Notes: a model not told the origin generated them from the letters alone. A DNA stretch of 64,000 bases from Amphiscolops sp. MND2022 (GCA_964187785.1 OZ076409.1:1488001-1552000), one strand, 5' to 3'; positions 8,445 through 54,260 are shown, counted from the first letter of the stretch. Made by a program: numbers and translations.

Positions 8445-9166
8445 ACAGACATTCAAAACTTTTTTCTACCGGTTGCAAAATGCATCCAATATTTGGATTC
8501 GAGGTTATAACTAACAGTACTGCGGTTGAGATCTTAGTACAAGTCAAGAATGGACAATTCCTAGAGTCTCGAGAGATCTTTCTGCTGTTTCTTACAAGTT
8601 GCCGAAAGTTTCTGCAGCTTCCATAGAATACGCTCTAGTTAAAAGCAAGCTTTTCGAATATTAATATTCTGATATTTTGCGAAGAAACAAGATTTGAATG
8701 AGACCGAGCCAACGGATCCTTAATGGACTTTTTCGAACTGACAACTTCTACATTTTTCGACTCTTTAAGTTCATTTTAGGCACTTTCCTTTGAAAACCTT
8801 AGAATTTTCAATTTAAAAAAACAAGGAAAGTAGCTAATTGTTTTTTTAAAAAAAAACACCTACAAATTTACAAAATCTGCACGACTGCACAAAACACTCG
8901 AAAATGCGAATTTTTTGTTTTCTTGGAAGCTTTCCAATTTCTTCCTCTCCCGTGCAAAATATGAGCGTAGTATGAAAAACAATTGTTAAGTAATGATCTA
9001 ATTAGGTAAGATTTAAGTTAATTTTGATCACGATTGTGTTTCTTGTTCTGCTTTCTTTTCATGACGGGGCATGTCAACAAGTCATGCTCCGTGCTGACGT
9101 CATTTTTGCTTGATCGAATTTTTCATCTTTTCGATTTTTTCATTTGGTTGACTGCGGTTGTTTCAG

Positions 9167-9403
9167 GCAAATTCATTGGCTTCATCTGCGCAGTAGCAGG
9201 AGTGCTCACAATAGCGCTGCCAGTACCTGTGATTGTGAGTAACTTTGCATCTTTCTACCAGCACGCCCAAGCGAGAAAAAAGTTGCCCAAGAAACGCCGA
9301 GAGATCAAACCGGCCACTGGGAAACTGCCACTGATGAGGAAAACAGGTTTCAGAAACTTGCAAGTCAACAGCCAATCACAATCAAGAAGAGGTTCCCCGC
9401 GAT
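9167..9403 (+). CDS. Shaw/Kv3-family K+ channel, S6 exon of upstream repeat (unit 1)
   Basis: tttcag| acceptor; translates (G)[44 protein letters not shown]..., the canonical S6 PVP gate plus the Shaw-type post-S6 KLPKKRR; donor T|gttagt, phase 1/1. Confidence 0.92.
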
Positions 9404-10694
9404 GTTAGTTTCTCGCTGCTTTTTATTTATTTAACGTCAAGATTTTACAAGATGCAGGGAAGTTTTACAAGATTTTTCCCTGCATCATTCCTGTTCCAGG
9501 TTTTTCAAAAAACTTCAATGTATGCATCCATGCAACATGTAAAAATTTTATAGAGGCTCAATTAGGGTAGCAAATCACGGATTTTGAAACATATTTGGAT
9601 TCATTGAAAAAATTTGAAACACCATGATTGTTCCCAAAAAGTCAAGCGCCAAAAAAGTATTTATTTCGCTCTCTGTACTATAACTCCTAGGATATTGGGT
9701 ACAAGTTATCCCAATTCAGAAAGATAATTTTTGGGAAAGTATTCTGCAGTAGTACAAAAATCCCCCCATAATAGAATAACATAGAGCATCACCAAAGAAG
9801 ACCAAAAAGTATTCAGCTTTTCGAATTTTTACCGTTGAGAACCATTACACAAACAATTAATACTTTTTCCCAACAAGGATTAGTATAGAAAGCCTGCCGA
9901 ATCAAAAAAAAAGAATTCAAACACTTTTCTCGAGTTTTTGTATTTCTTTACGAACTGAATTAAAAAATTTAGCATTCATTTGTTTTGCTAAAAGTGATGC
10001 TCATAAGTACTTTTCACCACTGGAAGAGAAATTTGGTGAATTGAAATACGTAGTTCCACATTTAAAAGTAAAAAAACGATAGGTTAAATCTTACCGAATT
10101 TTGTTTCCAATAATTACAAGATTTTATTTTCTATCTATTGGAACAAAAATTGTTATATTGGAACGCTCATGATTCGTTTTTGTTTTTGGCATATTTTCAC
10201 AAACTTACTCAAAGCCTCCATGGCTATCGAAACATCTAGCTTTCAGGCATGGATCTTCGTAGATGAATCATGGTTCATTAGAGTGCATAGGCAAGCTTAA
10301 TTTGCTCAAAGCGCAACTTTGTGCTTTCAATACCTCGGATTCCACGACCATACCTTTAACCGTGCAAAATTGGCAAATTACCTCATAAGCTGGATTCCAC
10401 GGAATTCCTCGTGGATTCCAGGAACAAATGCTTAGCTGTGCGCACTGTCGGCATGCCGCTGTGTCCCGGATTCCACAAAAACGTAAGTTTTGCAAAACGA
10501 ACCAATCAGATTGCAGAAGTCATAAATTTCCTGGATTCCACGACTCTATGCTTGACGCGATACGCGGCATCTCTTCTTGAATTAATTTCAAGTGGAAGAC
10601 TGAACAAACATAGTATTATGCACTACTTTTCGTATATTAACTCAAAATGATTCAGACTAACACACCAGTATTACACAAAAAATGTTTTCTTTCA

Positions 10695-15939: not shown

Positions 15940-17030
15940 GCGAGAAAGAAAACACTGAAACCGGTGGAAACGAAGTTTCCGAAGAAAAATCTGCGGCTGA
16001 TTTGTCATCAATTGTGGCTGCCCTTCGCAGAAAAGAGGCATCAAAATCAAAATTGGAATCAGTGTCAACAAAAGTTCAGGGTTCCAACCCAAAAATGAAA
16101 GAAACAGTCGAAAGCCATCCAGTTCTCGCAACAATTCCAAAAAAATGTGCCAGCAATCTGGTTCCGAACGGAGTTTGTTCTGTGGCTTCTTCAAAAGTGC
16201 CGGATCCGGAAACCTCGCTTTTGGAAACTCCGGATACTTCGGTCAAGATTACCGTCGAATGTCACGATGATGCTGCAGATGACGTAACGAATGATGAAAC
16301 CAATGACGTAATAAATGACGTAACTGATGACACAATCACGAGTGACGTCGATCCGTTTACCGAGAGTTCTTCTCGGAAAGTTTCAAAGTGTGTAAATCAT
16401 TGCAAGGAAGTGGAAAGTCCAATATTTGTGAATGTTTGCGATGATGAAATTTCGACGATTCTCAACCCGTGTCAATTGAATAATGGCGTTTTTGATGGGT
16501 TGGATAATATGCAGCTGGTAGCCAATCAAAACTCTTCTCACTTATTATCCAATCAGAATTCAGTTCAACTATCAGCCAATCACAATTTGACACAACTATC
16601 GACCAATCACAATTCGACTCAACTATCAGCCAATCACAATTCGATTCAGCAATCAGCCAATCACAATTCGACTCAACTATCAGCCAATCACAATTCGATT
16701 CAGCTATCAGCCAATCACCATTCGGCACAACTATCAGCCAAACACATTTCGACTCTACTATCAGCCAATCACAATTCGATTCAGCTAGCAACCAATCACA
16801 ATTCGACTCTAATATCAGCCAATCAGAGCCAGCTATGCAGTGACTCATCAAACTACGATATCTATTCAAACTCATCGGGATGTTCAGTGTTAGACGCGGG
16901 TTCTCTAATCGCGATTGACCATGAAACAAACGTTGATTGTAATGTTCACCGGAAAAAGCCCCTGGATAAAAATTGCGTCATGCAGCGACCGCAATTTCCT
17001 CAAATTTTCACTTCATCCAAAGATTTTTGA
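15940..17030 (+). CDS. Large acidic/low-complexity exon, probable (alternative) terminal exon of Kv unit 1
   Basis: Within 386-aa ORF; tttgtattcag| acceptor in phase 1 compatible with upstream donors; contains QLSANHNS repeats; stop at 17028-17030; AATAAA about 300 nt downstream. Confidence 0.55.
16520..16825 (+). repeat. 30-bp in-frame minisatellite (about 10 units)
   Basis: Unit like CAACTATCAGCCAATCACAATTCGACT/ATT encoding QLSANHNS(T/I). Confidence 0.9.
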
Positions 17031-17692: not shown

Positions 17693-18395
17693 GTGAGTTA
17701 GTTGCCACTCATGGAGTCCCAAGTTCGAATCCGAGGTTCATCCTCAAAAGATCTTTTTAGTCGGCGCTTTTTTTGAGACAAGAGTCGACTATAGTCATGG
17801 CTTTTCGTCAGTGTTGTTTTTCGATACATCTGAAGTGACCAAAATAGTTCTACCAAAAGTTCTCCAAAATTTTCAGGTGTCGCCAAAATGTACCTGACCA
17901 AGGAACTGAACCAAAATAGTTTTTCCTTTTTTTCCGCGCAACATACAATACCGGGCGGTACTAAAGGGTCCCATCTTTGAGTTTTTTTCGGCATTGTTGG
18001 ACATTTTTTCAAAAAAATTTTCACCAAAGTGTCACCAATTCACCAATACCTTGACACTTTGAAGTCCTTTTGCTATTTTTGAGCCTTTTATATGGCACCG
18101 AAGTAGTATACGAATTCCCGATTGGGGCCAGTCAAGCCATCAAAATTAAGTATATTTTTTCAAACAAACTGTTAAAACAGGTATTTTTACAAATCCTGAT
18201 AAAAAATCATCAATTTAAGCATATTTTTACAAACAAACAGTTAAAACAGATATTTTTCCAAATATATCATCAAAAGTACCTTTTTTCACAACTCAATATT
18301 AACAGATAACAAAAACAAGCATATTTTCCCAAAATATCAATCAAAATTTAGCCTTTTTTCAAGGTAATTAATCAAGGTTTTTTCAAGGTTTTACT

Positions 18396-19727
18396 TGCAA
18401 TAAGACTAATCACGTTCCTGACCACTTAAAGGGAAAAAATCATTCTGAAGCTTTATTGCTCAAAAAGCCGCGCCAATCAATTCTAGTACCAAGTGGCTCA
18501 CATGTTGAGGACAATTTTAACCGAAAACTTGTTGAGGAATGGCTCGGAGCAGGATTACCGCTAAAAGTTTTATCACAGCCTAGTTTTCGCTCATTCTTTG
18601 AAACTGCCCTTAGCAGGAAAATCCCTTCAGTTTCCCAACTTTACACCAAATATGCTGACACAGTATATGCCGAAAAACAATCTACTTTCTTACATCTAGT
18701 AAAAAGCTTCAGGTCATATTACGTTATGTTTGATGAGGCAGATTATAATGGAGAAAAATACTATGCATTTTTGATAGGCAATCTTAATGCCGAGGGCGCT
18801 CACCAGCCCTATCTCATCGAGTTAAGTCGAGAGATGAAAACACCTGATGCTGTTGCCGTTCAGCAAAAGGTCATTCAGCTGTTATCAAAGGTAGGCCTAT
18901 TGACTTCTGAAGATGCTTTTAATAAATTTCGCCTGTTTCTTACCGATGGGGCTTCTTATTGCACAAGTGCAGGAAGGGAAATAAAAAAGACATTTCCGAA
19001 AATGGAGCACATTACTTGCTTCTCACATATGCTCGCTCGAGTTCTATGTGCCGTAAAAGATTCTTCTCCTTCCGTTACAAAAATGGTTAAATTCGTTACA
19101 AAATTTTTCCACAATTCCACTCGACGAGTTTCTGACTGGTCTATTGTTTGTAGCAAAAAATACCCCACACCAGTTGAAACACGCTGGGGGACATGGATTG
19201 ATGCCGTTATTTACATTTCCGAAAATTGGGAGCCATCTCGAAGTTTTTTGAATTCCAGGAATGTTCAAGAAGATAAAGACAAGGCGGAAAAAATTTTATC
19301 ATTGATGGACCAAGATGGCGTGAAAGCCCAAACAGGGTTTTTGTGTTCTCTCCAATTTATTCGCGAGAAAATCACCGAAAGTGAAGCTGCAGGATATACC
19401 GCAATAAAGGCCATGAACGCTGTTCAGTTTATCCAATCACGTCTTATTGATTTGAAAGAAACAGGAAATACAATTGCCGATGTTGCTCTGGCAAAATTGG
19501 ACGCAGTTTCGGAGAAAAATGAAGGTTTACGGAGAGTTGTCCGTTTTGCGAACGGGGAATCCATTTCTGAGCCCGCCGACATAGGAGTTTTCGCATTCGC
19601 ACCATGCACAACAGTGGATGTGGAGCGATTTTTCTCCGTGCTCAACGCTTTCGTGTCCGACAGACCGAATATACTTGAACAAACTCTCAAGAAAATGTTG
19701 TTTATTAAGTATAATTCAACATTATAG
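18396..19727 (+). CDS. hAT-superfamily DDE transposase (DUF659/CGGBP1-like), 5'-truncated
   Basis: 423-aa ORF from TTG at 18456 with FDE, LTDGASY, CFSH, ETRWGTW and APCTTVDVERFFS motifs; in-frame upstream CNKTNHVPDHLKGKNH looks like half a zinc finger; no ATG before it. Confidence 0.85.
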   Translation, partial: CNKTNHVPDHLKGKNHSEALLLKKPRQSILVPSGSHVEDNFNRKLVEEWLGAGLPLKVLSQPSFRSFFETALSRKIPSVSQLYTKYADTVYAEKQSTFLHLVKSFRSYYVMFDEADYNGEKYYAFLIGNLNAEGAHQPYLIELSREMKTPDAVAVQQKVIQLLSKVGLLTSEDAFNKFRLFLTDGASYCTSAGREIKKTFPKMEHITCFSHMLARVLCAVKDSSPSVTKMVKFVTKFFHNSTRRVSDWSIVCSKKYPTPVETRWGTWIDAVIYISENWEPSRSFLNSRNVQEDKDKAEKILSLMDQDGVKAQTGFLCSLQFIREKITESEAAGYTAIKAMNAVQFIQSRLIDLKETGNTIADVALAKLDAVSEKNEGLRRVVRFANGESISEPADIGVFAFAPCTTVDVERFFSVLNAFVSDRPNILEQTLKKMLFIKYNSTL

Positions 19728-19814
19728 ACGTTAATTGTTGTTTAATTAATGTTATTGAACAATAAATTTGTGTTTTCTTTGGCATTCTAGCAGTGCCGAA
19801 AAAAGTGCCGAAAA

Positions 19815-20234
19815 CTAGCTCAAAATGCCGATTTTCGGCGCCGAAAACGAAGACAAAATGCCGAAAATAATTCTTCCTAGATACAACACATACAAACAAT
19901 ACGCCGCACAATAACTGTCGTCGGTCTGAATTTGATGTTCTGAATAGATACCTTTTTTAATGTGATTAAGTATACTAGTTGGAGGTGGTCATCCATTTGA
20001 ATCAAAATAATACTCGTTAACAAACATAACCCAATGTGTTCCTTTGGTTGGATGTAAATTTACAATTCCAGAATCTGTTGTAAACTTATTATCTCTCATG
20101 TAAATTCCTACTGGGATTGTTAGTTTACCGGAGGCGCAAAGCGTATCAAGAACTTCTTTTATTTTAATATTGGAGGTTGCTTCATCTTTTAATCCATATT
20201 AATCAACAAATTCTTTGAATGATAAACAATTCAT
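19815..20234 (-). pseudogene. Adenain-type (Polinton/adintovirus-like) cysteine protease pseudogene
   Basis: MNCLSFKEFVD*YGLK...GIVNLHPTKGTHWVMFVNEYYFDSNG*PPP...EHQIQTDDSYCAAYCLYVLYL; catalytic H, D, Q, C motifs present; two in-frame stops. Confidence 0.85.
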
Positions 20235-21044
20235 TTATTAGTTATTTTTTATGACAAAAATTTCCACTGGAACAATTTGTTATTTAATTTTTCTTTTGTC
20301 AATTTTTTAGTTGTGAAAAAGGCTAATTTTTGATTAATTACCTTGAAAAAAGGCTAAATTTTGATTGATATTTTGGGAAAATATGCTTGTTTTTGTTATC
20401 TGTTAATTTTGAGTTGTGAAAAAAGGCACTTTTGATGATATATTTGGAAAAATATCTGTTTTAACTGTTTGTTTGTAAAAATATGCTTAAATTGATGATT
20501 TTTATATCAGGATTTGTAAAAATACCTGTTTTAACTGTTTGTTTGAAAAAATATACTTAATTTTGATGGTTTGACTGGCCCGAATCGGGAATTCGTATAC
20601 TATTCACCGACTAGGGCCGGCTTGTTTTATAGTGTTTTACCATGAAGTCGTTGACTTCGAATTTTTCCCTTCTCGATCTGCAGTTTAGTTGAAACCGCCG
20701 GATATTGAATCTGACTTGACTTATTTTAGTTATGTTTCTCAGATCCCAGTCATACGATTTTGATGCCATTGCATGGAAATGTTCATTTAAAGGTCGGGAG
20801 AAAAAGGTACGCGTGCATAAGTAGTCAAAAATTTTTCCGACTCCTAAAATCTGAAATTATCACCTTTTCTAATCGTAGTTGTTCCGATAACTTTCAAGTG
20901 ATTTGATTTCTTCACAAAGATTTTAATTTACTGCATTTTTGACCCGTTGACTTTGATAAGTTGAACCTTGATCACTTGACCCTTAATAACTTGACCCTTG
21001 ATGAGTTGACCTTTGATAAGTTGAGCTTTGACCTTGACCTTTAG

Positions 21045-21244
21045 TGGTTCTTCAACGATGCCGGTGGGCAGTTCACAGACGTACCCCCTGCAAGACTACT
21101 GGGACGCAACGGGGCAGCTGAAACTGAATGGCCGACCCAAACAGTACCTTTTCATAATCGAGTGCTTCTGCAATGCCTGGTTCACCTTCGAACTCATCAC
21201 TCGTTTCATCGTGTCACCCCAGAAAATGCACTTCATACATGAAG
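21045..21244 (+). CDS. Shaw/Kv3 channel unit 2, S1-S2 loop and S2 exon
   Basis: LFIIECFCNAWFTFELITRFIVSP matches Shaw S2; phase 2/1 consistent with neighbours. Confidence 0.92.
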
Positions 21245-24239
21245 GTTACTATGCGGACACTTTGCCACACCGTCGTACTAGGTGAACCAAAAGAAACGGA
21301 ACACACAAAATATTCACTCTTCAAAATCGTAATATTTGTAAACATGACACTGAAAACCTTTCACTTTCTATGTCAATCATCTTCTCATTACGTAATCAAT
21401 TCTTCATCGAAGAATGATCCGAACATTCATGAAAAACTGTAGACGTCTTCACCAGTCATTTCGTTCACACTTTCGATAAGTGAAAGTTCATTTGCTTCAA
21501 AGAAACAATGTCAAAGTGAATGACTGACGAGCTGAATTGCAATGTTCAGAGTTTTTTTGAAACATTTGTTGACAAATATTTGAAACTCTGATAGCTCAAA
21601 CATTTTCATGCTTTCACACAGTAAAATGAGCTGTGCAAAGTACTGTGCAATGTCTATTTATCTAACTAACTGTATCCCATCGGGACTGTTCAATTCGTCG
21701 AACACGTATTAATTTAGCGAGCATGGTATGAGGTAATGGAATGAATTGATTTCGGCCAATCAAATTCGAGCATTCAAAATTACGATAACGTCGTCAGCTA
21801 TTTTCACATACTCCTAGTGCCCTAAATGCAGGAGCGAAGCTGAGTGAAGCGACGTGCCATATGGCCATGTCTCAATATTGCTACTTGGCGAAGGGAGCGA
21901 AGCGACCGAGCCATACAACAAATATCCTAATCGCCACAAAATATAACCAAATGAAAATAATCGCTGAGTTGGAATTCTTTCGACGCATTGGATAGCTTTT
22001 CATTTTTCGACGATTTGAATGTTCGTTCGACGAATTGAAGTTGCACCGTATCCCCTGCAAACCGATTTCTGCCAAACGGCACATATTATTAATTGGGGTA
22101 CCGGTTTCAAGGACGGTGGAGTTAATTTCATTCATTCGAACATTTCATTTTCTGTCTAAACCACAAGAAAAAATCTGTTAAAAATTCTATACGACAAGAA
22201 AAAGTCTGTTAAAAAGTTGAACAAACTAGTAGTTGTAGTAGTGACATATGAAATCCAAATTCTCAGAGTTCCTAAAATTTCAAAGATTGTCTACAAACGT
22301 TTCACGACAACTTTGAATGGTGCTGTCAATCATTCACATTGTCAACTTCGTTCGGAGCAAAAGAATTTTCACACATCAAATTGGGAACGAAATGACTGGT
22401 AGCGATGTCTAGAGTTTTTCTCATGGTTCGAACTATCCTTAGTTGAATGTAAGTTCAAGTAACAAGGGCTTCTTTCTAAATGATTAAAACAAAATTTGAA
22501 TAAATTTCAGTGCTTTATGTACAATTAATGCGACTTCGAAGACGCAAATGTTTGTGCGTTCCGTTTTCTTGCTTAACCCAGTACACGTTTTTCTACTTTT
22601 CACCGCTAACTAGGTGAACCAATATAACGAAATTCACAAAAATTTCGTTTCAGGAACTGTAACATTTGTAAACAAGGCTCTCAAATTGTTTCATTTTTTC
22701 GCTCAATCATTTGAAATGGAGCTCTCATTACGTAACTAAGTCTTTGACTAAGGATGATCCGACTCGGAGGTTTTTACCCTTCTCACAGTTTTACCAGTCA
22801 CTTCGTTCCAACTTTTGATGAGTGATTGTCTCTAGCTTCGAACAAAGTTGCCATAATTAGTGATTGACAACAGCGTTCAGAAGTGTTTTGAAACGTTTGT
22901 TGACAAATATTTGAAACTTTGAGAATCGGAAAAAAAATGTATGGGATCGGTTTTTTGTTCACTTGGTAGATGATCCGCAAAGAACGGTACAAAATGGAAA
23001 TATCGCAATTTAACAACGTTACCAATTGTCAAGAAGATGTTTGGAGTTTCCATGTTTCATGTTATCGTTTGCCAATCATACAGAACAACATCAGACAAGC
23101 TTGACAAGCACTTTGAACTTAACTAGCGAAATCGCCATACGATGCCCACTTTTTTCGATCACAGGCGGTTTGAAAATACATTTCACCCTAGTCAAGTAAC
23201 AACTGATTGTAGACTCACACTACATCGAGACACATTTTGATGGCTTGTTCATTCGGAACTCTCTCCATATTCGCTCTCTCCATTTTAGTGAACTTTCGTG
23301 ATCAGAAATCACTTCCTTATCGAAAAACATGAAAAAACTGATGAAAATGCTTTTTCGATATTTTTCCTTCAAAAAAGTCTTATAGTGTTGAAAACTCGAA
23401 GGGGACGGTTTGCGATCTTCAACTTTTTTGCTTTCAGTAAAAACGGGAAAAGATGAAGAGAATCCTTCAGTCCCATAGAGTTTTGATGATACAGTAAAAC
23501 TATGAAAAACTCAAAAAGAATAAGTACTTTTGGCTTCTTTGGTCTCGCCTAAGAACTTGAACGTAGAGTCCGTAGAAAGTGGCTATTTCAGTTTAAACTC
23601 TGTGGTCGTGATAAAAAACTAATCACCGTAATATTCGGCCACAACTTCTAAGACCACGCGGCGACTGAAAAAATTTTTGTATCGGGTTCTGTTTTTCACA
23701 GGTTACACACGGTATTACTGCAAGAATCCAGAAAAATATTTCACTCCACTTTTCTCAATTCTTGAAAACACATCTATTATAATGCAGGTAAAGAACCCAC
23801 ATAAGACTACAACAGATTTAATGCGGTCAGTGTTTTTCCCCGATTGGCGTCGTAATGTAGTTTTTTGCAAGTCATCTTGTTGACATTTTGAAAACACCTT
23901 GTTGAAAACATTGTTTCAAATAAGATGGAAATTACTCAAACTTCAGATTCTTGAATTACTTCGTGTTTTGGACGGAGCACGGATTTTTTACCACATCTTC
24001 GAATAAAATGAATAAAATATATGTAAATCGATGAGTATTCAAATGAAATTGCTCATCGCTTATTTACCATCACATCAAATTACAGTGATTTTGTGACTTT
24101 CTACAAAATGCTCAAAAATACTTTTTTCGTTCACAAAAAGTTTGTTCCTTGATCTGGGTTACTGCTTAGAAACCCTTCTTGAACAAACCTTCAATCATCT
24201 ACAGTTTGATCTTTCATTGAGTTTTTTTGAGTTTGTGAA

Positions 24240-25445
24240 CTTTTCAAGCCTTCAACTTTTTGACCCTTCAATTTTTGACCCTTGAAATTTGATCCTTGAC
24301 TTTTGAAGCGTAACTTTTAACGCTTGAGTTCTTAACCTTGACTTTTGACCCTTTTCTTTTTTTGACCATCGACCCTTGACTTCGTTTGACCCTTGACTTT
24401 GTGTTTGACTCTCTACTTTTGATCCTTGACTTTTTCCACCGTTGATTTTCTCGACCCTTGACTTTGTTTGACCCTTGACTTTTGACTCTTGACTTTTGAC
24501 TCTTGACTTTTGACCCTTGACTTTTTCTACCGTTGACTTTTGACCCTTAACTTTTTTTGACCCTTGACTTTGGACCCTTGACTTTGTTTGACCCTCTACT
24601 TTTGACCCTTGACTTTTTCCACCGTTGACTTCTTCGACCCTTGACTTTGTTTGACCCTTGACTTTTGACTCTTGACTTTTGACCCTTGACTTTCTTTGAC
24701 CCTTGACCCTTGACTTTTGACCCTTTGACTTTGTTTGACCCTTGACTTTTGACTCTTGATTTTTGACCCTTGACTTTGTTGACCATTGACCCTTGACTTT
24801 TGACCCTTTGACTTTGTTTGACCCTATACGTTTGACCCTTGACTTTTTCCACCGTTGATTTCTTCGACCCTTGACTTTGTTTGACCCTTGACTTTTGACT
24901 CTTGACTTTCACCCTTGACTTTGTTTGACACTATACGTTTGACCCTTGACTTTTTCCACCGTTGATTTCTTCGACCCTTGACTTTGTTTGACCCTTGACT
25001 TTTGACTCTTGACTTTCACCCTTGACTTTGTTTGACCCTTGACCCTTGACTTTTGACCCTTTGACTTTGTTTGACCCTCTACGTTTGACCCTTGACTTTT
25101 TCCACCGTTGATTTCTTCGACCCTTGACTTTGTTTGACCCTTGACTTTTGACTCTTGACTTTCACCCTTGACTTTGTTTGACCCTATACGTTTGACCCTT
25201 GACTTTTTCCACCGTTGATTTCTTCGACCCTTGACTTTGTTTGACCCTTGACTTTTGACTCTTGACATTTGACCCTTGACTTTTGACCCTTTGACTTCGT
25301 TTGACCCTTGACTTTTGACTCTTAACTTTTGACCCTTGACTTTTTCCACCGTTGACTTTTGACCCTTGACTTTTTCCACCGTTGACTTTTGACCCGTGAC
25401 TTTTGACCCTTGACTTTTTCGACTGTTGACTTTTGACCCTTGATT
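24240..25445 (+). repeat. 1.2-kb TTGACCC/TTGACTT minisatellite
   Basis: Degenerate 7-mer units with higher-order repeats; abuts the S3-S4 acceptor. Confidence 0.95.
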
Positions 25446-25453
25446 ATTGACAG

Positions 25454-25635: not shown

Positions 25636-26822
25636 GCACCAACCCCGCCCCATTTATTTCGAAATAAATAAACAAACTAGTATCTACGAAAAGTTGACTT
25701 TTTGCCCCTTTGACTCGTCATACTATGCCCCCCCCCGTATTCGTTTTCACTTGCAAATCCCCACTCAGCCAATCAGAAGCGTTGATACTTCATACATGTA
25801 TTTAAGAACGTTTCTCTTTGTTCTCCCTTTTTTGGCGGGGGGGGGGGGGTATGACATAAAGAGAGCGATCCCTTTTTTTGGATGTCATAAACGGCGGGGC
25901 TCTTTTCTGCCCCCACCACCACCATAATTTTTGAAAGTAAATTTTCTTGAAAATTTCAGACTAGCCTAATTAAAAGTATAATAAATACATCGAAAAAATT
26001 GTACAATAATAAAAATAGGGCAATTCGTCGCGCAGAAAAGTGAAACGATTAAAAAAATGTTGCAAGAAGCTTGTTAAGTACTATTATTTTCATGCCCACA
26101 TTTTTTACTGCCTTTGAATTCATATTTTCAATCTTGATTTTGATGTCTTGATTTTGATCAAAATGTCAATTTTGATTGCCTCGTCTACAGAAAAATACCA
26201 AAGCAAACTTCAGCAAAACTTTGTTTTAACATTAGTTTTTCCCGTTTTTTCAGAATTTTTTGATTATATAGGTGGAATATCTTCGTCCTATACATTATTT
26301 TCTCTCAATTAAGATAAGCATGGATCTTTTCATCCACAGCTGTAGTTGATCAAATGTCTACTATCCATCAAAGTTGCGATTTGAACATTTTTTTTCGTTT
26401 TATAGTTTTCTTTCTTTTCATCAAAAAATACTTTTTTTGTTTTTCCTAAAAATGCAAAATAACTGCACACTGGTCACATTCACACAAAAAACACAGTCAA
26501 ATTTATTATTTCAGTGAATATAAATTCACAATTTGCATCAACAATTTGACATATTTGGCATTTCAATTAAGATCTGAAAGAAAGAAAAACACGTGTCACA
26601 CAGTAATCACGAAGATTATTACCAATAACAGAAAACATAAGTTTGATATCTTGAAACTGTAGTGAAAAAAAAAACAATCAAAAACATTTTTTTCAATGCT
26701 CTTTAAAACATGTTTCTTATCCCTTGTTTAAAACAGTTGTTTAAAACAATGCCACCTCCCTATCCAACTAGCTACATCTAACTAAGCAAGACCAAAGTGG
26801 AGTGGGTTCGGTTCCCTGACAG

Positions 26823-27033
26823 GCCTCTGCAAGGGAGCTGTTTCTGCTGATCCTGTTCCTCATCTTCGGCGTGGTCATCTTCAGCGCCATGGTGTACTTC
26901 GCGGAGAAGATGGAGCTGAAGCGCCAGAAGGACACCCAAAACGACTTCCAGAGCATCATTGACGGATTCTGGTGGAGTGTCGTTACCATGACAACCGTGG
27001 GGTACGGAGACATGGTCCCCAGAAGTTACTCAG
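26823..27033 (+). CDS. Shaw/Kv3 channel unit 2, S5 and pore exon
   Basis: [28 protein letters not shown]...[22 protein letters not shown]; intact TVGYGD filter; phase 0/1. Confidence 0.96.
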
Positions 27034-27281
27034 GTCAGCTCTTGTTATTTTCCGCCCACATATAATGGGGGAGGAAAATCATAATCTGTTTAGCGTTTTC
27101 TTTAACAAATTCTGCCAAATCTCCACGATCTCCATCCACTACTTGATAATTTTACCTAGTTACTTAACTATTTTAGTTACTTGAACTGCACTTTATTACT
27201 CCACTTGCCAAACATCCACTTTTAAATATATCCACTTTTTACTGTAATTTACTCCACTTTATGATTTAGTAAATTCTAGTC

Positions 27282-31492: not shown

Positions 31493-34400
31493 TGTTCTAT
31501 TCTCACTAACTAAGGGTTTGGTGAAAAAGAATGTGTTAAAAGAATATCTATAGTTCACTGACTGTCTTGTAGATACTAAATGCATATAATAAAGTATAAG
31601 CTCTTGATTTCACCGCTTGTGTTGATAGCCGGTTCTTTTCTTATTCTTTTTTCGGTCTGAAATACAAGGCCCGAAATAAATTTTCGGTTTAATATTTTTC
31701 CGGTATCCGTTTTTACGGTACTTTCGGTCCCGCGCACTGCTGTTTGTAATTTTTTTTGGAATTTCCATTCTAATGATATTTTATTAATTTTTTTTTCAAC
31801 ATAATAGAAAGGATATCTAACCGAAACTTTCTTCGGTGACTATGGACCTTCATTGGTGGTTGCTCTTCTGTTTTGGTCCTCGCCATTATTATGTGGTTGG
31901 TAATCTCTCCTTCCGCATCACGCCAACATAACATGGAGTCTTTGGTCAGTTCGGTGCTGAAATAGCCATTTCCGAGCAATAAGTCAAGTATGTTATTCGT
32001 CCTTAACGATAATCGATAATTCGGTTTTCGGGTTTCTCCCGTGATGTAGTTCTAACGGTGTTATTTTTAATCCCGTTTGTATTGTAAAACGCATTACCCG
32101 TAGCACTGGATTCACACTTTCGGGTAAATTGATTCCGTCCTTCGAATTCGCTTTTATCAATTTTTTTAGTGTTTGTATTGATCTTTCGGCTGCTCCGTTT
32201 CCGGTGTGTATTCGGGGTGTGCAGTATTCTATTTCAATATTTCGGCTTTTGCAAAATTTTCTATACACTTTAAAAATAAATGCTCCCCATTTGTGGGATT
32301 TTATCTTTTCTGGAATTCCGTACATGTTGAAAATGCTCGATAAGAACATTATCAACTCTTTTAGTTCCGAATTCTACAGATTTTTATAGTAGGCTATTGC
32401 TAAAACTGTCTACCGTGATCAGTATTTGTACTTCGCCGTCTAAACTTTTATTATGTAATTTTTCGCTGAAATCAATTTGTATTTCTTGGCCAGGTCCGGT
32501 TACATTTTCTAAGTTTCCGTAGTGTTTTTTCGGAAATTGGTATTTAAGACTTTTACCTAATGCTAGGCATGCTGTGCAGTCCTTCACTTTATTTTCGATG
32601 TCTTGTTTCATGTCCAGCCACCAGAATATCTTCGCTTCGAACGTAATTTTTGTGATGCGGGAGTGACCGAAATGCAAAATTTGAATGACGATTTGGTCGT
32701 CGACAAATATAAGGTCCCGTATGACAGAGAGTTTGTCAAAAACTGGTCGGTAGCCGTTTGGAATCGTTTCTCTGTCCTCACGGCGCATGCTGTTTCTTGT
32801 TTCTAACTCGAGTAATTTCTGGGTTGATTGCCGTTTTAGAGATCAGGGTTTTTAAGTCCATCATGAACTCGAACTCTGATTTCTTGATGAGGTCTTGGTT
32901 GCTTTCTTGTTTGTAGTAAGTTTCCCGACGTTGTGGTTGATTTGTATGTACTTGGCTTCTTTGCCGTCAGTGTTGTACTTCGTCAGATCGACAATTGCTA
33001 GATTGTCGCCCCGCATTATTACATTATCTTCTTCATTTTCGATCGTCTCTTGTTCGATCTCTCCTTCTTCTCTCACTTTTCCGGTTTTTCATTTTCATCT
33101 TCTTCTTCCTCTACTACTACTAATATCGGTTGATAGCCACCTCCGGATCAATTCCACATCAATTTCGGCAATTTTTTCTCTGCTTCATGTATTCGACCGT
33201 TCTTTGTGTTTGATGGTCATACCGGCGTGTCAATGTTCCGGGCCGGGATAGCGCGTTTCGTTGCTCCACCAGTCTTTTTGTCTCGGGGCTGTTTTTTCGT
33301 CTCCGGATAATATCCATTATTTCTCGGGGTAGCTTCCCAGTGGTAATAGTTTACTATATCTATTTTCTCGTGTTCGTTGTCTTTCGATGATTGGCCGCTT
33401 TCCAAAGTGTTAAAAAATATGGATGTCGTTATTTGGCTTTATTAGGTTTTCTTCACCTGTTTTTCGTTCTCGAATGTTCTATGTGAATGTGATTGGTGCT
33501 TTCTGTGCTGAATTTTGGTTCTGGAATAATCTTCTTTCTTTCGGTTATGGTTTTGCTGTGTTCTGATTGGTTAGCGAACAGTTGTTCGTATTTCGAGTTT
33601 AAGATAGCTTGTTCGACAATTATGTTGAGTACGTATTCTTGATCGTAACTTTCTTCCGGCTTTGCTCCCCCTAACGGATTTCTACTGAGAAGTTGGTGAA
33701 CATACAATTGCTGCCTGCGATATGCTGTATTGATATATCGAAGTGAGTTAGACGGTCCAACCATCTCGTTAATCTCGGGCAATACTGTTTGTTGCTTCGG
33801 ATTCTTTCTATCAGTGGTTCTATTGCTTGAATGGTCAGTATTGAGATGGACTTCTTTTTCGTTAAGGTAAAATCGGAATTTCTCTAATCCCCATACCACC
33901 GCCAATAATTTGAGTTCACTGAGTGTTTCTTTTCGGTTTAATTCAAATACCGGCTTCCGTACGCTATAGGTTTTGTATTTCCGTCATCTTGTTTTTGCCA
34001 TAAACCACGTTCCCGTTGCGCTAGCATCAGTCGTTACTCTGTTGTCTTAATGTTTTGCATAGTGTGCTAGACATGGGCCTTCGGTCAACATCTGTTCTGT
34101 CTATCCAAAGTCTTCTTCTTGTTCGGGTCCCCAGTTCCTCCCCAATAGTTTTTGGAGTCCAACCATTCTTTCCGAAAGTTTCGGTACGAATTTTGCCATG
34201 TATTGGATTGCTCCGAGTAAAGATTTCAGTTCCTTTGTAATTTTTGGTGGGTTCAGTTTAGTTTTAAGGTAACTTCTACTTTTCATTCGTTCGGTTTTAT
34301 TCCGTTTTCATCAATCTCGTAGCCCAACCACTTTGTTTGGTTCACGAAGATTTCGGATTTTCTTTTGCTTGCTCGGTATCCGGCTTTCTCCAATTTATTC

Positions 34401-36480
34401 AAGTTGTCAACTTCTTTTTTCTCGTGTTCTTATTTATTTCCCTCGGTTACTACAATTATGTCGTCTAATCAAGACGGTGTGCTGTATCCGAGTGTTCGGT
34501 CAATTTTTTCTTGATATATTGTGGGTATATCGGCAAGACCGTAACCCAATTTTTGAATCTGTAGAATGCGCGGAATATCCCTCCGGTTGTTGTGAATACG
34601 GATTGTCGGTTTGTTTCTCCGGATAGTTTCATTTGTCCGTATGCGTAGTCCAAGTCTTTCTTTGAGGTAAATAGTTGTACTGTTCGGTCGCGTGTAATTT
34701 CTACAGAAGTTTGATTTAAGGGCTCCTCCATGTTCGGCATATGCGGTCTCATTTTGGTGCAACTATCTATCCTTCAATTTCCGTGAATCTGATGTTATTA
34801 TTTGTCGATTTGTCGCTTTTCACGGTTTTTATCACCGGTAAAACGAAACAATCTTCATCTACATCGTTCTTCGTTTCTAGATGTCCGGATTTTATCAGTT
34901 TTCTAGTTCGCGCCCTACATCTTGTTAGTGCAGTGGTACCAGTCTAGTTTTTTGTTTGACTGGTTAAGGTACCAGCTTCAACTGGATGTTTATTTCGGTA
35001 TCTTTTTTTGTTTCGTTTTTCTCAAACAAGTTCGAAATTGTGTCGGATACTTTCTCGCGTTTTGATTTGCTGTTCTCGGCCAATTACCTTCTGCCTATGG
35101 TTGGTTCGAATGTTTTCATCCAGTCAATCCCGAGTAAAGATGTTATATCTGTTAATTTGGATATTAGGATTTCCAATTTTTGTTTGCTATTCTCGTACTC
35201 CATGTCTAGCGGAATGTTTCCCCGGAATTTTACTTCGTTCTTACTCACATCTTGGCATCTATTTGTGATCTTTTGTATTTCGGCTAGTTTCAATATCGTT
35301 TCTTCCGGTGGCATTAACGGTAGCCGGTATCGATTATCGATTATGAATTCTTTTTTGTCCAGTTCATTTTCACTGTTGCCGTATAGCGTTTGTTCTTTTC
35401 TTCGATTTTTATTCTTTTATGTGGTGTATACTTACTTCTGATTCACTTGATGTTTCGTTTCGGTCGTCGGTTTCTTCTTCAATTAGTCTATTCACTTTTC
35501 GGTTGGTTGTTAGTGTATTTCTATCTTCACACTTTTGCGTAGTGTCCTTTTTCCCGCATTTGTTACAATATGTTTCTAATGCTGGACACTTATGTAATGG
35601 TGTCCAGTTCGGTGCCCCCAAACTCTGCATGTTCTGTTTCATGCCGGTCTGGTGTTTGGTCTCGCACCGAATTTCTTTATTCTTTGTATCAGTTCTTCTT
35701 TCATAGTGTGTCGTTGCCAAAATTGCCAAAATTAACGCCTCGTGTATTGTATTTTTTTTGTATGTGTTTTGTTTGAATAGTTCAATCGTCTTTTTCACTT
35801 CTACTGTTTTCTCTTTCATCATTTTGTCCCGTAAGTTTTAATCGGTGATTGCTGTCATAAATTTGGATATCAGTAGTTCTTGGGCTGAGATTTCGCTAAA
35901 ATTGCAATTGTTTTTTCGATTTCGATCAGTCTTCTCCAAAAGTCTTCGGGTGTCTCTTCTTCCGTTTTTTTGCCCAAATTGAATCTCCCCGGTTGAGGTA
36001 AGTATTTCGTTTCGGTATACAGTACTCGGTGAGAAACCGGATTAGGTCTTTAATTTTGATGCTGTCCGGTTCTGTTTCATACTCGGCACGTGTTATTTGA
36101 TACAGCTCTTCGCGTTTAACTCCCCAGATGAAGTCTTTCTGGATTTGTTGTTCTTTTCCAGTCCATACGGAATCGGTGATGTCTTCTCCTTTTGATAGTG
36201 GTGCAATGTCTGTTATGTTCCCGTTTAGTAAACTGCCGGACTAGTTCTAACTGCCGGAATCGGAAACTCTCTCGGTGTGAATATCGCGTTTCCGTCCGAA
36301 GCCTTTGCTTCTAGGTTCGGTACTGTGTTTTTTTCTGTCATGTTTATTGTTTAAGGTTTCAATTTGTTCGAAATTTGGCTGACTGCGCCATGCTCTATTC
36401 TCACTAACTAAGGGTTTGGTAAAAAAAAGAATGTGTTAGGAGAATATCTAGAGTTCACTGACGAAATGTATATAATAAAA
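31493..36480 (-). mobile_element. Degenerate Ty3/Gypsy LTR retrotransposon
   Basis: Minus-strand fragments in order gag (CPA..C.KCGK), protease, RT (DLDYAYGQ, LDDII), RNase H (AVVWGLEKFRFYL), integrase (H..H/C..C, YGIPEKI); many frameshifts; direct repeats starting 31493 and 36391; PBS at 36378-36390. Confidence 0.92.
36378..36390 (-). other. Primer binding site of the Gypsy element (probably tRNA-Ser)
   Basis: TGGCGCAGTCAGC directly follows the LTR-terminal CA; complementary to a tRNA 3' end GCUGACUGCG-CCA. Confidence 0.7.
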
Positions 36481-53447: not shown

Positions 53448-54260
53448 AAACCAGAGCCGCATGTGCGGTAAAGGAGTCGGCTTAGGTTTTTTTCTGAAGT
53501 CGAAAAATGGCCCTTTTTTGACCATTTTTAGGCTAATTTTGACTATGTTTCTCACATCCCAGCCATACGATTTTGATGCCATTGCACATATAGGACTCTA
53601 ATATGGTGTAGAATATCTGTAGAAAATTTCGTTCGAATCGTATGGACAGTTTTTGAGAAAATTGAAAAAAGTCGAAAAATGGCTGTTTTTTGGCCATTTT
53701 TGGGCTAATTTTGGCTATGTTTCTCACATCCCAGCCATACTATTTTGATGCCATTGCACATATAGGACTCTAATATGGTGTAGAATATCTGTAGAAAATT
53801 TCGTTCGAATCGTATGGACAGTTTTTGAGAAAATCGAAAAAAGTCGAAAAATGGCTGTTTTTTGGCCATTTTTGGGCTAATCTTGGCTATGTTTCTCACA
53901 TCCCAGCCATACGATTTTGATGCCATTGCACATATAGGACTCTAATATGGTGTAGAATAACTGTAGAAAATTTCGTTCGAATCGTATGGACAGTTTTTGA
54001 GAAAATCGAAAAAAGTCGAAAAATGGCTGTTTTTTGGCCATTTTTGGGCTAATTTTGGCTATGTTTCTCACATCCCAGCCATACGATTTTGATGGCTTTG
54101 CACACGCAGGGGCCCCTTTGGGTGTAGAATGACTGTGCAAAATTTCGTGAAAATCGTATGGACAGTTTTTGAGAAATTTGAAATTTTCATGAAAAGGTCG
54201 GGAGAAAAAAAAAACAACACGATTGCATAAGTAGTCGAAAATTTTTTCCGACTCCTAAAA
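53448..54260 (-). mobile_element. Helentron-type family B element with internal 172-bp tandem repeats
   Basis: Hairpin CCGCATGTGCGG then AGGAGTCGG at left, CCGACTCCTAAAA at right; three-plus 172-bp units (53533, 53705, 53877, 54049); related copies about 55150-55580, 20745-20850, 59860-59950. Confidence 0.75.

What the first reader, a model, noticed from the sequence alone, without database searches (positions are those of the whole stretch)
18102..20604. Mini Polinton/Maverick carrying a captured hAT transposase
The ends have Polinton hallmarks (AGTAGT terminus, ~274-bp near-identical TIRs, 6-bp TSD) rather than short hAT TIRs with an 8-bp TSD. The interior has a Polinton-type protease remnant facing a long open hAT transposase truncated at the left TIR; TGCCGAAAA repeats at about 19794-19868 look like hAT subterminal sites. 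No polymerase, integrase or capsid genes remain. If the chimera moved as a unit, it is a non-autonomous virus-like element ferrying another transposase.
Basis: partly seen in the sequence, partly recalled or inferred. Interest (0 to 1): 0.75.

Follow-up and report, generated by a model that had tools for sequence, protein, structure and literature searches.

The report
Collapsed Polinton holding a broken hAT
A large virus-like transposon was hit by a smaller cut-and-paste transposon and then lost almost all of its middle, leaving a 2.5-kb relic that looks like a one-off genomic scar rather than a new kind of mobile shuttle.

Summary
The anatomy is real. The TIRs are 274/275 bp and 97.5% identical. 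The 6-bp TSD is a true insertion scar: 7 of 8 paralogous host-repeat alignments cross the empty site. Inside lie an adenain-fold protease remnant and a Hermes-fold hAT ORF.

The hAT was probably not captured. Its right end, with six clustered GCCGA motifs, sits about 20 codons before the end of the protease gene, as if it inserted there itself. One deletion from inside the left TIR to transposase codon 38, sealed by a 14-nt filler (12 nt match the TIR), explains the rest. The transposase has lost its start and half its BED finger.

No genome or reads were available. The protein collection holds this ORF on one contig. None of 33 other family entries carries its six private residues, and 15 keep the native N-terminus. 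So there is no sign that the chimera amplified, though a single jump is not excluded. No full-length Polinton with these TIRs was found.

Transposon cargo in polB-less polintons is already described in a preprint. Verdict: nested insertion plus deletion, low interest.

The parts
17754..18101 (.). Left part of a dispersed host repeat into which the element inserted (start approximate; the repeat continues at 20611 to about 20630)
   Evidence: Self-BLAST; empty-site alignment to 7 paralogues
18096..18101 (+). Left copy of the 6-bp TSD (CACCGA)
18102..18375 (+). Left TIR of a Polinton-type element, starting AGTAGT; AT-rich with internal sub-repeats; its inner end is the deletion breakpoint
   Evidence: (AGT)2 end motif as in PMC8097293 (passages)
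18376..18389 (+). 14-nt junction filler; 12 nt match TIR 18354-18365 (templated-insertion-like)
   Evidence: a match this long in the preceding 60 nt occurs at 49 of 5000 random window positions
18390..19727 (+). 5'-truncated hAT transposase, codon 38 to stop. DDE, CxxH and RW motifs are present; the start codon and the first half of the BED finger are lost
   Evidence: full-length 482-aa sister P0211, 11 of 445 residues differ; Hermes, E 1e-9
19728..19879 (+). hAT 3' UTR (AATAAA near 19761), subterminal GCCGA cluster 19795-19864 and inferred right end (TAG-type on the minus strand, plus or minus 1 nt)
   Evidence: the end position is inferred from where protease homology stops
19880..20234 (-). 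Adenain-type (CE-clan) cysteine protease remnant, 118 codons, stops at codons 12 and 82, cut by the hAT about 20 codons before its end
20235..20329 (-). 95-bp AT-rich spacer (20% GC) with a further TIR-type sub-repeat; possibly the unpaired inner part of a longer original TIR
   Evidence: (family D4)
20330..20604 (-). Right TIR (275 bp); its terminus differs from (AGT)2 at one base
20605..20610 (+). Right copy of the 6-bp TSD (CACCGA)

Best explanation
A single nested-insertion relic. (1) A Polinton/Maverick-type element integrated into a host dispersed repeat and made the 6-bp TSD (shown: TSD and empty site; inferred: its integrase did it and it was then full length). (2) An ordinary hAT of a young, low-copy family jumped into the 3' part of its protease gene, which lies about 370 bp from the right terminus (shown: protease homology stops where the hAT 3' end begins; inferred: hAT transposition). 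(3) One deletion removed everything from inside the left TIR through the Polinton core, the end of pro and the hAT left end up to transposase codon 38. It was closed with a short locally templated filler, as in theta-type end joining or a replication template switch (shown: junction and filler; inferred: mechanism). The product encodes nothing able to move it or the hAT: no polymerase or integrase, a one-ended hAT, and a transposase without start or intact BED finger. It is decaying in place.
For: One insertion and one deletion account for all 2,503 bp. P0207, seen on 1 contig, equals the window ORF from residue 29 on, so the collection holds this locus or an identical copy once. None of the other 33 family entries carries any of the six window-private residues (each position covered by 3 to 15 entries), and 15 of 33 keep the native sequence across the junction. 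The nearest sisters (P0211; P0194/P0216/P0212, which share one contig length) have native N-termini. 0 of 158 protease homologues held carry the hAT-end read-through tail. The TIR arms have diverged and one terminus is mutated. The hAT is not older than the TIR pair: 0.58% (95% CI 0.21-1.26) against 1.09% per arm (0.40-2.38). Templated inserts at transposon-induced breaks are described in PMC4490562 (passages).
Against: No DNA-level copy count was possible. The protein test misses sisters that split before the six private changes arose, or that have no called gene. The hAT-versus-TIR age difference is not significant (P = 0.20). The protease looks more decayed (3.45%, CI 1.27-7.51; P = 0.046 against the TIR clock; two stops where 0.22 are expected, P = 0.02). 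This could mean an already defective element made the last jump, but intact homologues also depart at a median of 3 conserved columns (range 0-8, 33 sequences), which inflates that estimate. No full-length Polinton with these TIRs was seen.
Confidence: 0.72

Rival explanations
1. A non-autonomous, defective-genome-like mini-Polinton. The hAT insertion and the deletion happened in a donor copy or during replication, and the 2.5-kb form was then copied and integrated here in trans by a helper Polinton.
For: Both termini and a clean TSD are kept. The protease seems more decayed than the TIR pair. A filler copied from the TIR also fits a polymerase template switch. A preprint reports polB-less polintons that amplified with LINE or LTR cargo (10.1101/2025.02.07.637071, section 13). 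The protease family is very large, so helpers probably exist.
Against: No second copy shows among 33 hAT family entries or 158 protease homologues. Both ends and the TSD are equally expected after an in situ deletion. The point estimate makes the hAT younger than the TIR pair, though not significantly.
Confidence: 0.18
2. The outer element is not a Polinton proper but a related integrating element (PLV- or Tlr1-like) with a similar protease and ends; the nesting story is otherwise the same.
For: The closest relatives with DNA context are only 28-36% identical. 7 of 8 lie near an A32-type ATPase and a capsid-like ORF, and 4 of 8 near a large SF1-helicase ORF, a PLV-type layout. The defining pPolB and integrase cannot be tested here.
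Against: An (AGT)2 terminus, a 6-bp TSD and TIRs of several hundred bp match the Maverick definition (PMC8097293). The best viral-fold hit is an adintovirus adenain (E 1.7e-3). PMC5499653 says most PLVs lack the retroviral-type integrase and Tlr1 lacks the protease (passages).
Confidence: 0.08
3. The TIRs belong to a hAT family that makes 6-bp TSDs (hAT6-like) and that picked up a Polinton protease fragment.
For: hAT6 families with 6-bp TSDs exist (PMC12730594, passages). The reverse case, a MULE that captured a Maverick cargo gene, is published (10.1101/2022.07.12.499685, passages).
Against: The transposase is cut at the left TIR, while 15 family entries keep the native N-terminus. The hAT's 3' UTR, motif cluster and end lie inside, 450 bp before the right TIR. 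TGCCGA is absent from both TIRs. The protease starts 95 bp from the right TIR and reads inward.
Confidence: 0.02

Closest known systems
Polintons/Mavericks (vertebrate Mavericks, PMC8097293, passages read)
   Same: (AGT)2 terminus, 6-bp TSD, TIR within the reported 46-1,447 bp range, adenain-type pro gene. That paper reports 96% of loci as degraded.
   Different: 2.5 kb instead of 12.7-24.6 kb. No pPolB, integrase, ATPase or capsid genes. pro is broken and lies next to the TIR.
polB-less polintons with LINE or Gypsy cargo in insects (Pannagram preprint 10.1101/2025.02.07.637071, section 13 read)
   Same: A transposon inserted in a TIR-flanked polinton that lacks its polymerase.
   Different: Those keep other polinton genes and show amplification. 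Here the cargo is a hAT, it is truncated, almost all of the polinton is gone, and no amplification is seen.
Polinton remnants and TIRs at C. elegans eri-6/7 (10.1101/2024.01.15.575659, passages read)
   Same: Short Polinton relics with TIRs, mixed with other transposons at one locus.
   Different: No effect on a host gene is shown here.
hAT transposases (Hermes fold; DUF659-bearing group, possibly hAT-19/CGGBP-like, PMC8097297, first of three parts read)
   Same: Hermes fold (E 1e-9), DDE/CxxH/RW motifs, BED-type finger in full-length sisters, CGG-containing subterminal motifs.
   Different: This copy is one-ended and 5'-truncated. The subclass was not tested, so hAT-19 is a lead only.
MULE-in-Maverick origin of msft-1/tlpr-1 (10.1101/2022.07.12.499685, passages read)
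   Same: A cut-and-paste transposon jumped into a Maverick next to a protease gene.
   Different: There the MULE kept both ends and carried off the cargo gene. Here the hAT lost one end and the Polinton ends survive.

Membership tests
Polinton/Maverick | Long terminal inverted repeats | tested here: met
   At least 274 bp, 6 substitutions and 1 indel
Polinton/Maverick | (AGT)2 or (AG)3 terminal motif | tested here: met
   Exact at the left end, one mismatch at the right end; motif from PMC8097293
Polinton/Maverick | 6-bp TSD | tested here: met
   CACCGA, not extendable to 8 bp; empty site supported by 7 of 8 paralogous alignments
Polinton/Maverick | Adenain-type maturation protease | tested here: met
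   Model pLDDT 89.9. Top Foldseek hits are adenovirus protease (E 0.017, prob 0.99) and adintovirus adenain (E 1.7e-3). The top 29 VIA-align rows are CE-clan-type by title, best Z 7.5, rmsd 2.8 over 96 residues. Atlas scores 0.94-0.98 to Preplasmiviricota and Peptidase_C5 clusters. Pfam gave no Peptidase_C5 hit for any of 34 members.
Polinton/Maverick | pPolB and retroviral-type integrase genes (define an autonomous Polinton) | tested here: not met
   All 2,503 bp are accounted for by other parts. It is therefore a derivative or relic, not a complete member.
Polinton/Maverick | A full-length parent with the same TIRs | not testable with these tools
   No genome held, no runs listed. The TIR pattern gave 0 matches in viral contigs and 5 matches in metagenomes, none extending into the TIR.
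Non-autonomous mobile family | Several copies with shared internal structure and different TSDs | tested here: inconclusive
   One copy in the window. Protein-level proxy: one matching record and no sister among 33 entries. A DNA-level test was impossible.
hAT superfamily | Hermes-type DDE transposase with insertion domain, CxxH and RW motifs | tested here: met
   The ten best Foldseek rows are Hermes, E 1e-9 to 4e-8; invariant D121, D192, C216, H219, R271, W275 and near-invariant E418. Sequence-only evidence is weak: DUF659 E 0.003, Hermes E 0.14, none with the profile.
hAT superfamily | N-terminal BED zinc finger | tested here: not met
   The first two cysteines are lost in this copy and present in sisters
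hAT superfamily | Short TIRs at both ends and an 8-bp TSD | tested here: inconclusive
   Only the right end survives. The 8 bp beside it occur once in the element, as expected if the other copy was deleted. No DNA of sister copies was available.
hAT-19 / CGGBP-type hAT | Match to the CGGBP1 domain model | not tested
   The model is not in the libraries held; the resemblance rests on CGG-containing subterminal motifs and PMC8097297

The most novel reading that the evidence does not exclude
The 2.5-kb unit is a defective-genome-like minimal Polinton replicon, formed by a template switch and mobilised in trans. This would show that about 270 bp of each end suffice for replication and integration, and that a 2.5-kb Polinton derivative can carry foreign transposon DNA. 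It would sit in a host whose Polinton-type protease family appears to number hundreds of copies.
Probability: 0.15. Interest if true: 0.55.

Novelty: new member of a known kind. Interest (0 to 1): 0.2.

Why it matters
As most likely read, it matters little: nested insertions and degraded Polintons are common. It does mark a probably undescribed Polinton family (TIR plus small protease) and a young hAT family with at least one full-length 482-aa ORF. If the unit proved multi-copy, it would define the minimal cis ends for Polinton mobilisation in trans. The insect preprint leaves that question open, although transposon cargo in polintons is no longer a first.

Tried and rejected
No genome is held for this window. 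TIR pattern scans: 0 matches in viral contigs; 5 matches of an 18-mer in metagenome contigs, all judged chance because none extends into the TIR. The single-sequence protease scan of viral contigs found no relative; the alignment found 8 distant ones. Pfam and PDB sequence searches did not name the protease; TMEM18 and defensin hits were rejected as noise. The hAT profile did not recover Hermes by sequence; the fold did. The exact look-up of the ATG-started 333-aa product failed; the TTG-started form was found later. Five look-ups of earlier findings returned nothing. TGCCGAAAA as a hAT-specific motif was rejected, since it is common in the host repeat; only its clustering is informative. No other Polinton protease or hAT remnant lies in the window (tblastn). 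Literature searches showed no report of a hAT inside a mini-Polinton, judged from listings and the passages read. Subscription papers and Repbase Reports are not covered, and preprint supplements were not seen. An earlier count said 30 other hAT entries; the count is 33.

Full report
Observation. The element runs from 18102 to 20604. Its arms (18102-18375 and 20330-20604) differ by 6 substitutions and 1 indel in 275 columns. The left end reads AGTAGT and the right end departs from it at one base. CACCGA flanks both ends and cannot be extended to 8 bp. The duplication is a true insertion scar: the element splits a dispersed host repeat, and of 8 paralogous alignments that come within 15 nt of the modelled empty junction, 7 cross it (29 hits in all). 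Passages of PMC8097293 give (AGT)2 ends, 6-bp TSDs and TIRs of 46-1,447 bp as Maverick features, and report 96% of loci as degraded.

The protease. The minus strand at 19880-20234 holds 118 codons with stops at codons 12 and 82, starting 95 bp inside the right TIR. Read with X at the stops, it found 835 relatives among 836 candidates, the best 120 at 66-90% identity. These typically run about 20 residues past the point where the window copy ends (median 22 by my offset). Pfam and PDB sequence searches did not name the family. The model has pLDDT 89.9. Its best fold matches are adenovirus protease (E 0.017, probability 0.99), CE-clan proteases (best Z 7.5, rmsd 2.8 over 96 residues) and an adintovirus adenain (E 1.7e-3). 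No fold hit passed E 0.001. The Atlas placed a close intact homologue with Preplasmiviricota and Peptidase_C5 clusters at 0.94-0.98. Eight viral contigs hold relatives at 28-36% identity; 7 of 8 also hold an A32-type ATPase and a capsid-like ORF. It is therefore a virion-maturation protease of the Polinton/PLV type.

The hAT. The open frame folds like Hermes (ten best rows, E 1e-9 to 4e-8) and keeps the DDE, CxxH and RW motifs. Sequence-only hits are weak. Sisters at 94-97% identity show that the window copy starts at codon 38 (18390) and lacks the start codon and two BED-finger cysteines. The first in-frame ATG lies at 18726, just before the first catalytic aspartate. After the stop come 152 bp with six GCCGA/TCGGC motifs in 70 bp, against at most 2 in any other 90-nt stretch. 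Then, at about 19879, a TAG-type end meets the protease (position inferred). CGG-containing subterminal motifs are reported for hAT-19-type elements in PMC8097297 (first of three parts read), but I did not test that subclass. TGCCGAAAA itself occurs 20 times in the window, many of them in the host repeat.

The left junction. Between the TIR and codon 38 lie 14 nt that do not encode the native residues. Twelve of them match TIR 18354-18365; such a match arises at 49 of 5000 random positions. Templated inserts of this kind are reported for theta-mediated repair of transposon-induced breaks (PMC4490562, passages). A polymerase template switch would look similar. Because TIR-type sub-repeats continue inward on the right arm, 274 bp is a lower bound set by the deletion.

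Mechanism. One hAT insertion into pro plus one deletion from the left TIR to codon 38 explain every base. The result has no polymerase or integrase, a one-ended hAT and a transposase without its N-terminus. The hAT is an inserted and then truncated passenger, not a captured working gene.

Did it move as a unit? No genome is held and no run was listed. The TIR was not found in viral contigs, and the 5 metagenome matches are chance. A protein-level proxy was possible. P0207 equals the window ORF from residue 29 onward and is on 1 contig, so the collection holds this locus or an identical copy. I compared the 33 other entries of the family; three hits at 49-58% identity (P0186, P0188, P0195) and the ten more distant hits were left out. 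Fifteen of 33 keep the native sequence across the junction. None carries any of the six residues private to the window copy (3 to 15 entries cover each). The three residues it does share link it to P0211 and to P0194/P0216/P0212, which have native N-termini on their contigs. None of 158 protease homologues held has the read-through tail of the right junction. This argues against amplification, but it misses sisters without a called gene and sisters that split before the private changes arose.

Rough clocks: hAT 0.58% (CI 0.21-1.26), TIR 1.09% per arm (0.40-2.38), protease 3.45% (1.27-7.51). The hAT being no older than the TIR pair fits insertion in place but is not significant (P = 0.20). Against my reading, the protease looks older than the TIR pair (P = 0.046; two stops where 0.22 are expected), as it would if an already defective element made the last jump. 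Intact homologues also depart at a median of 3 conserved columns, so that figure is inflated.

Comparison with what is known. Section 13 of the Pannagram preprint (10.1101/2025.02.07.637071) describes TIR-flanked, polB-less polintons with LINE or Gypsy cargo that amplified. Passages of 10.1101/2022.07.12.499685 describe Maverick cargo and a MULE that jumped into a Maverick. Passages of 10.1101/2024.01.15.575659 describe Polinton remnants in C. elegans. Passages of PMC3014272 note an apparent absence of non-autonomous Polintons in the anole. PMC11296320 mentions a family named Polinton-N1A_NV (one passage). hAT6 families with 6-bp TSDs exist (PMC12730594, passages) but do not fit this geometry. 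Searches showed no hAT-in-mini-Polinton report in the held library; subscription papers and preprint supplements were not seen.

Verdict. Best reading: a nested insertion plus deletion, decaying in place (0.72). A mini-Polinton that jumped at least once as a unit: 0.18. A non-Polinton relative as the outer element: 0.08. hAT6: 0.02. It works like nothing at present; it is a Polinton-derived relic, not a complete member of the family. Interest 0.2, rising to about 0.55 if genome-wide junction counts show several copies with different TSDs.

Noticed in passing
protein collection, relatives of window 19880-20234: The small protease (mostly 130-149 aa) has 835 hits among 836 candidates. The best 120 are 66-90% identical, nearly all from ENA and mostly on long contigs, with clusters of 158, 107 and 91 members. 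This suggests a very large Polinton-type expansion, perhaps in this host; the same-assembly link and gene context were not shown.
   Followed up: partly
protein collection, P0182/P0183 clusters and P0211: The hAT family is young (mostly 94-100% identical to P0211), on about 25 other contigs by my count of distinct contig lengths. It includes one full-length 482-aa ORF and a recurrent internally deleted form ending at residue 240, i.e. a probable non-autonomous hAT subfamily.
   Followed up: partly
window 17754-18101 and copies near 2050, 15500, 27800, 30100, 43700, 56300, 58900, 60700, 63600: An abundant dispersed repeat with a short GC-rich inverted terminal motif and TGCCGAAAA sites. From memory it resembles Helentron-associated non-autonomous elements; not tested.
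   Followed up: no
window 9028-9405, 21025-21282, 26820-27062 (+): Exons of voltage-gated potassium-channel-like genes: Pfam Ion_trans for the last two; the first by an S6-like motif seen by eye, without a Pfam hit. The order suggests two tandem genes. The element lies about 420 bp before the 21025 frame; intronic versus intergenic was not settled.
   Followed up: partly
window about 31990-35840 (-): Decayed LTR-retrotransposon pol fragments (Integrase_H2C2 and RT_RNaseH).
   Followed up: no
window 24238-25451, 16520-16825, 53497-54183: Tandem arrays: about 14-bp unit x80, 27-bp unit x11 inside a 388-codon open frame, and 172-bp unit x4.
   Followed up: no
L006, L008-L013: Polinton-like-virus contigs in which an A32-type ATPase, a capsid-like ORF and a distant protease relative lie together; 4 of them also hold a large SF1-helicase ORF.
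   Followed up: partly
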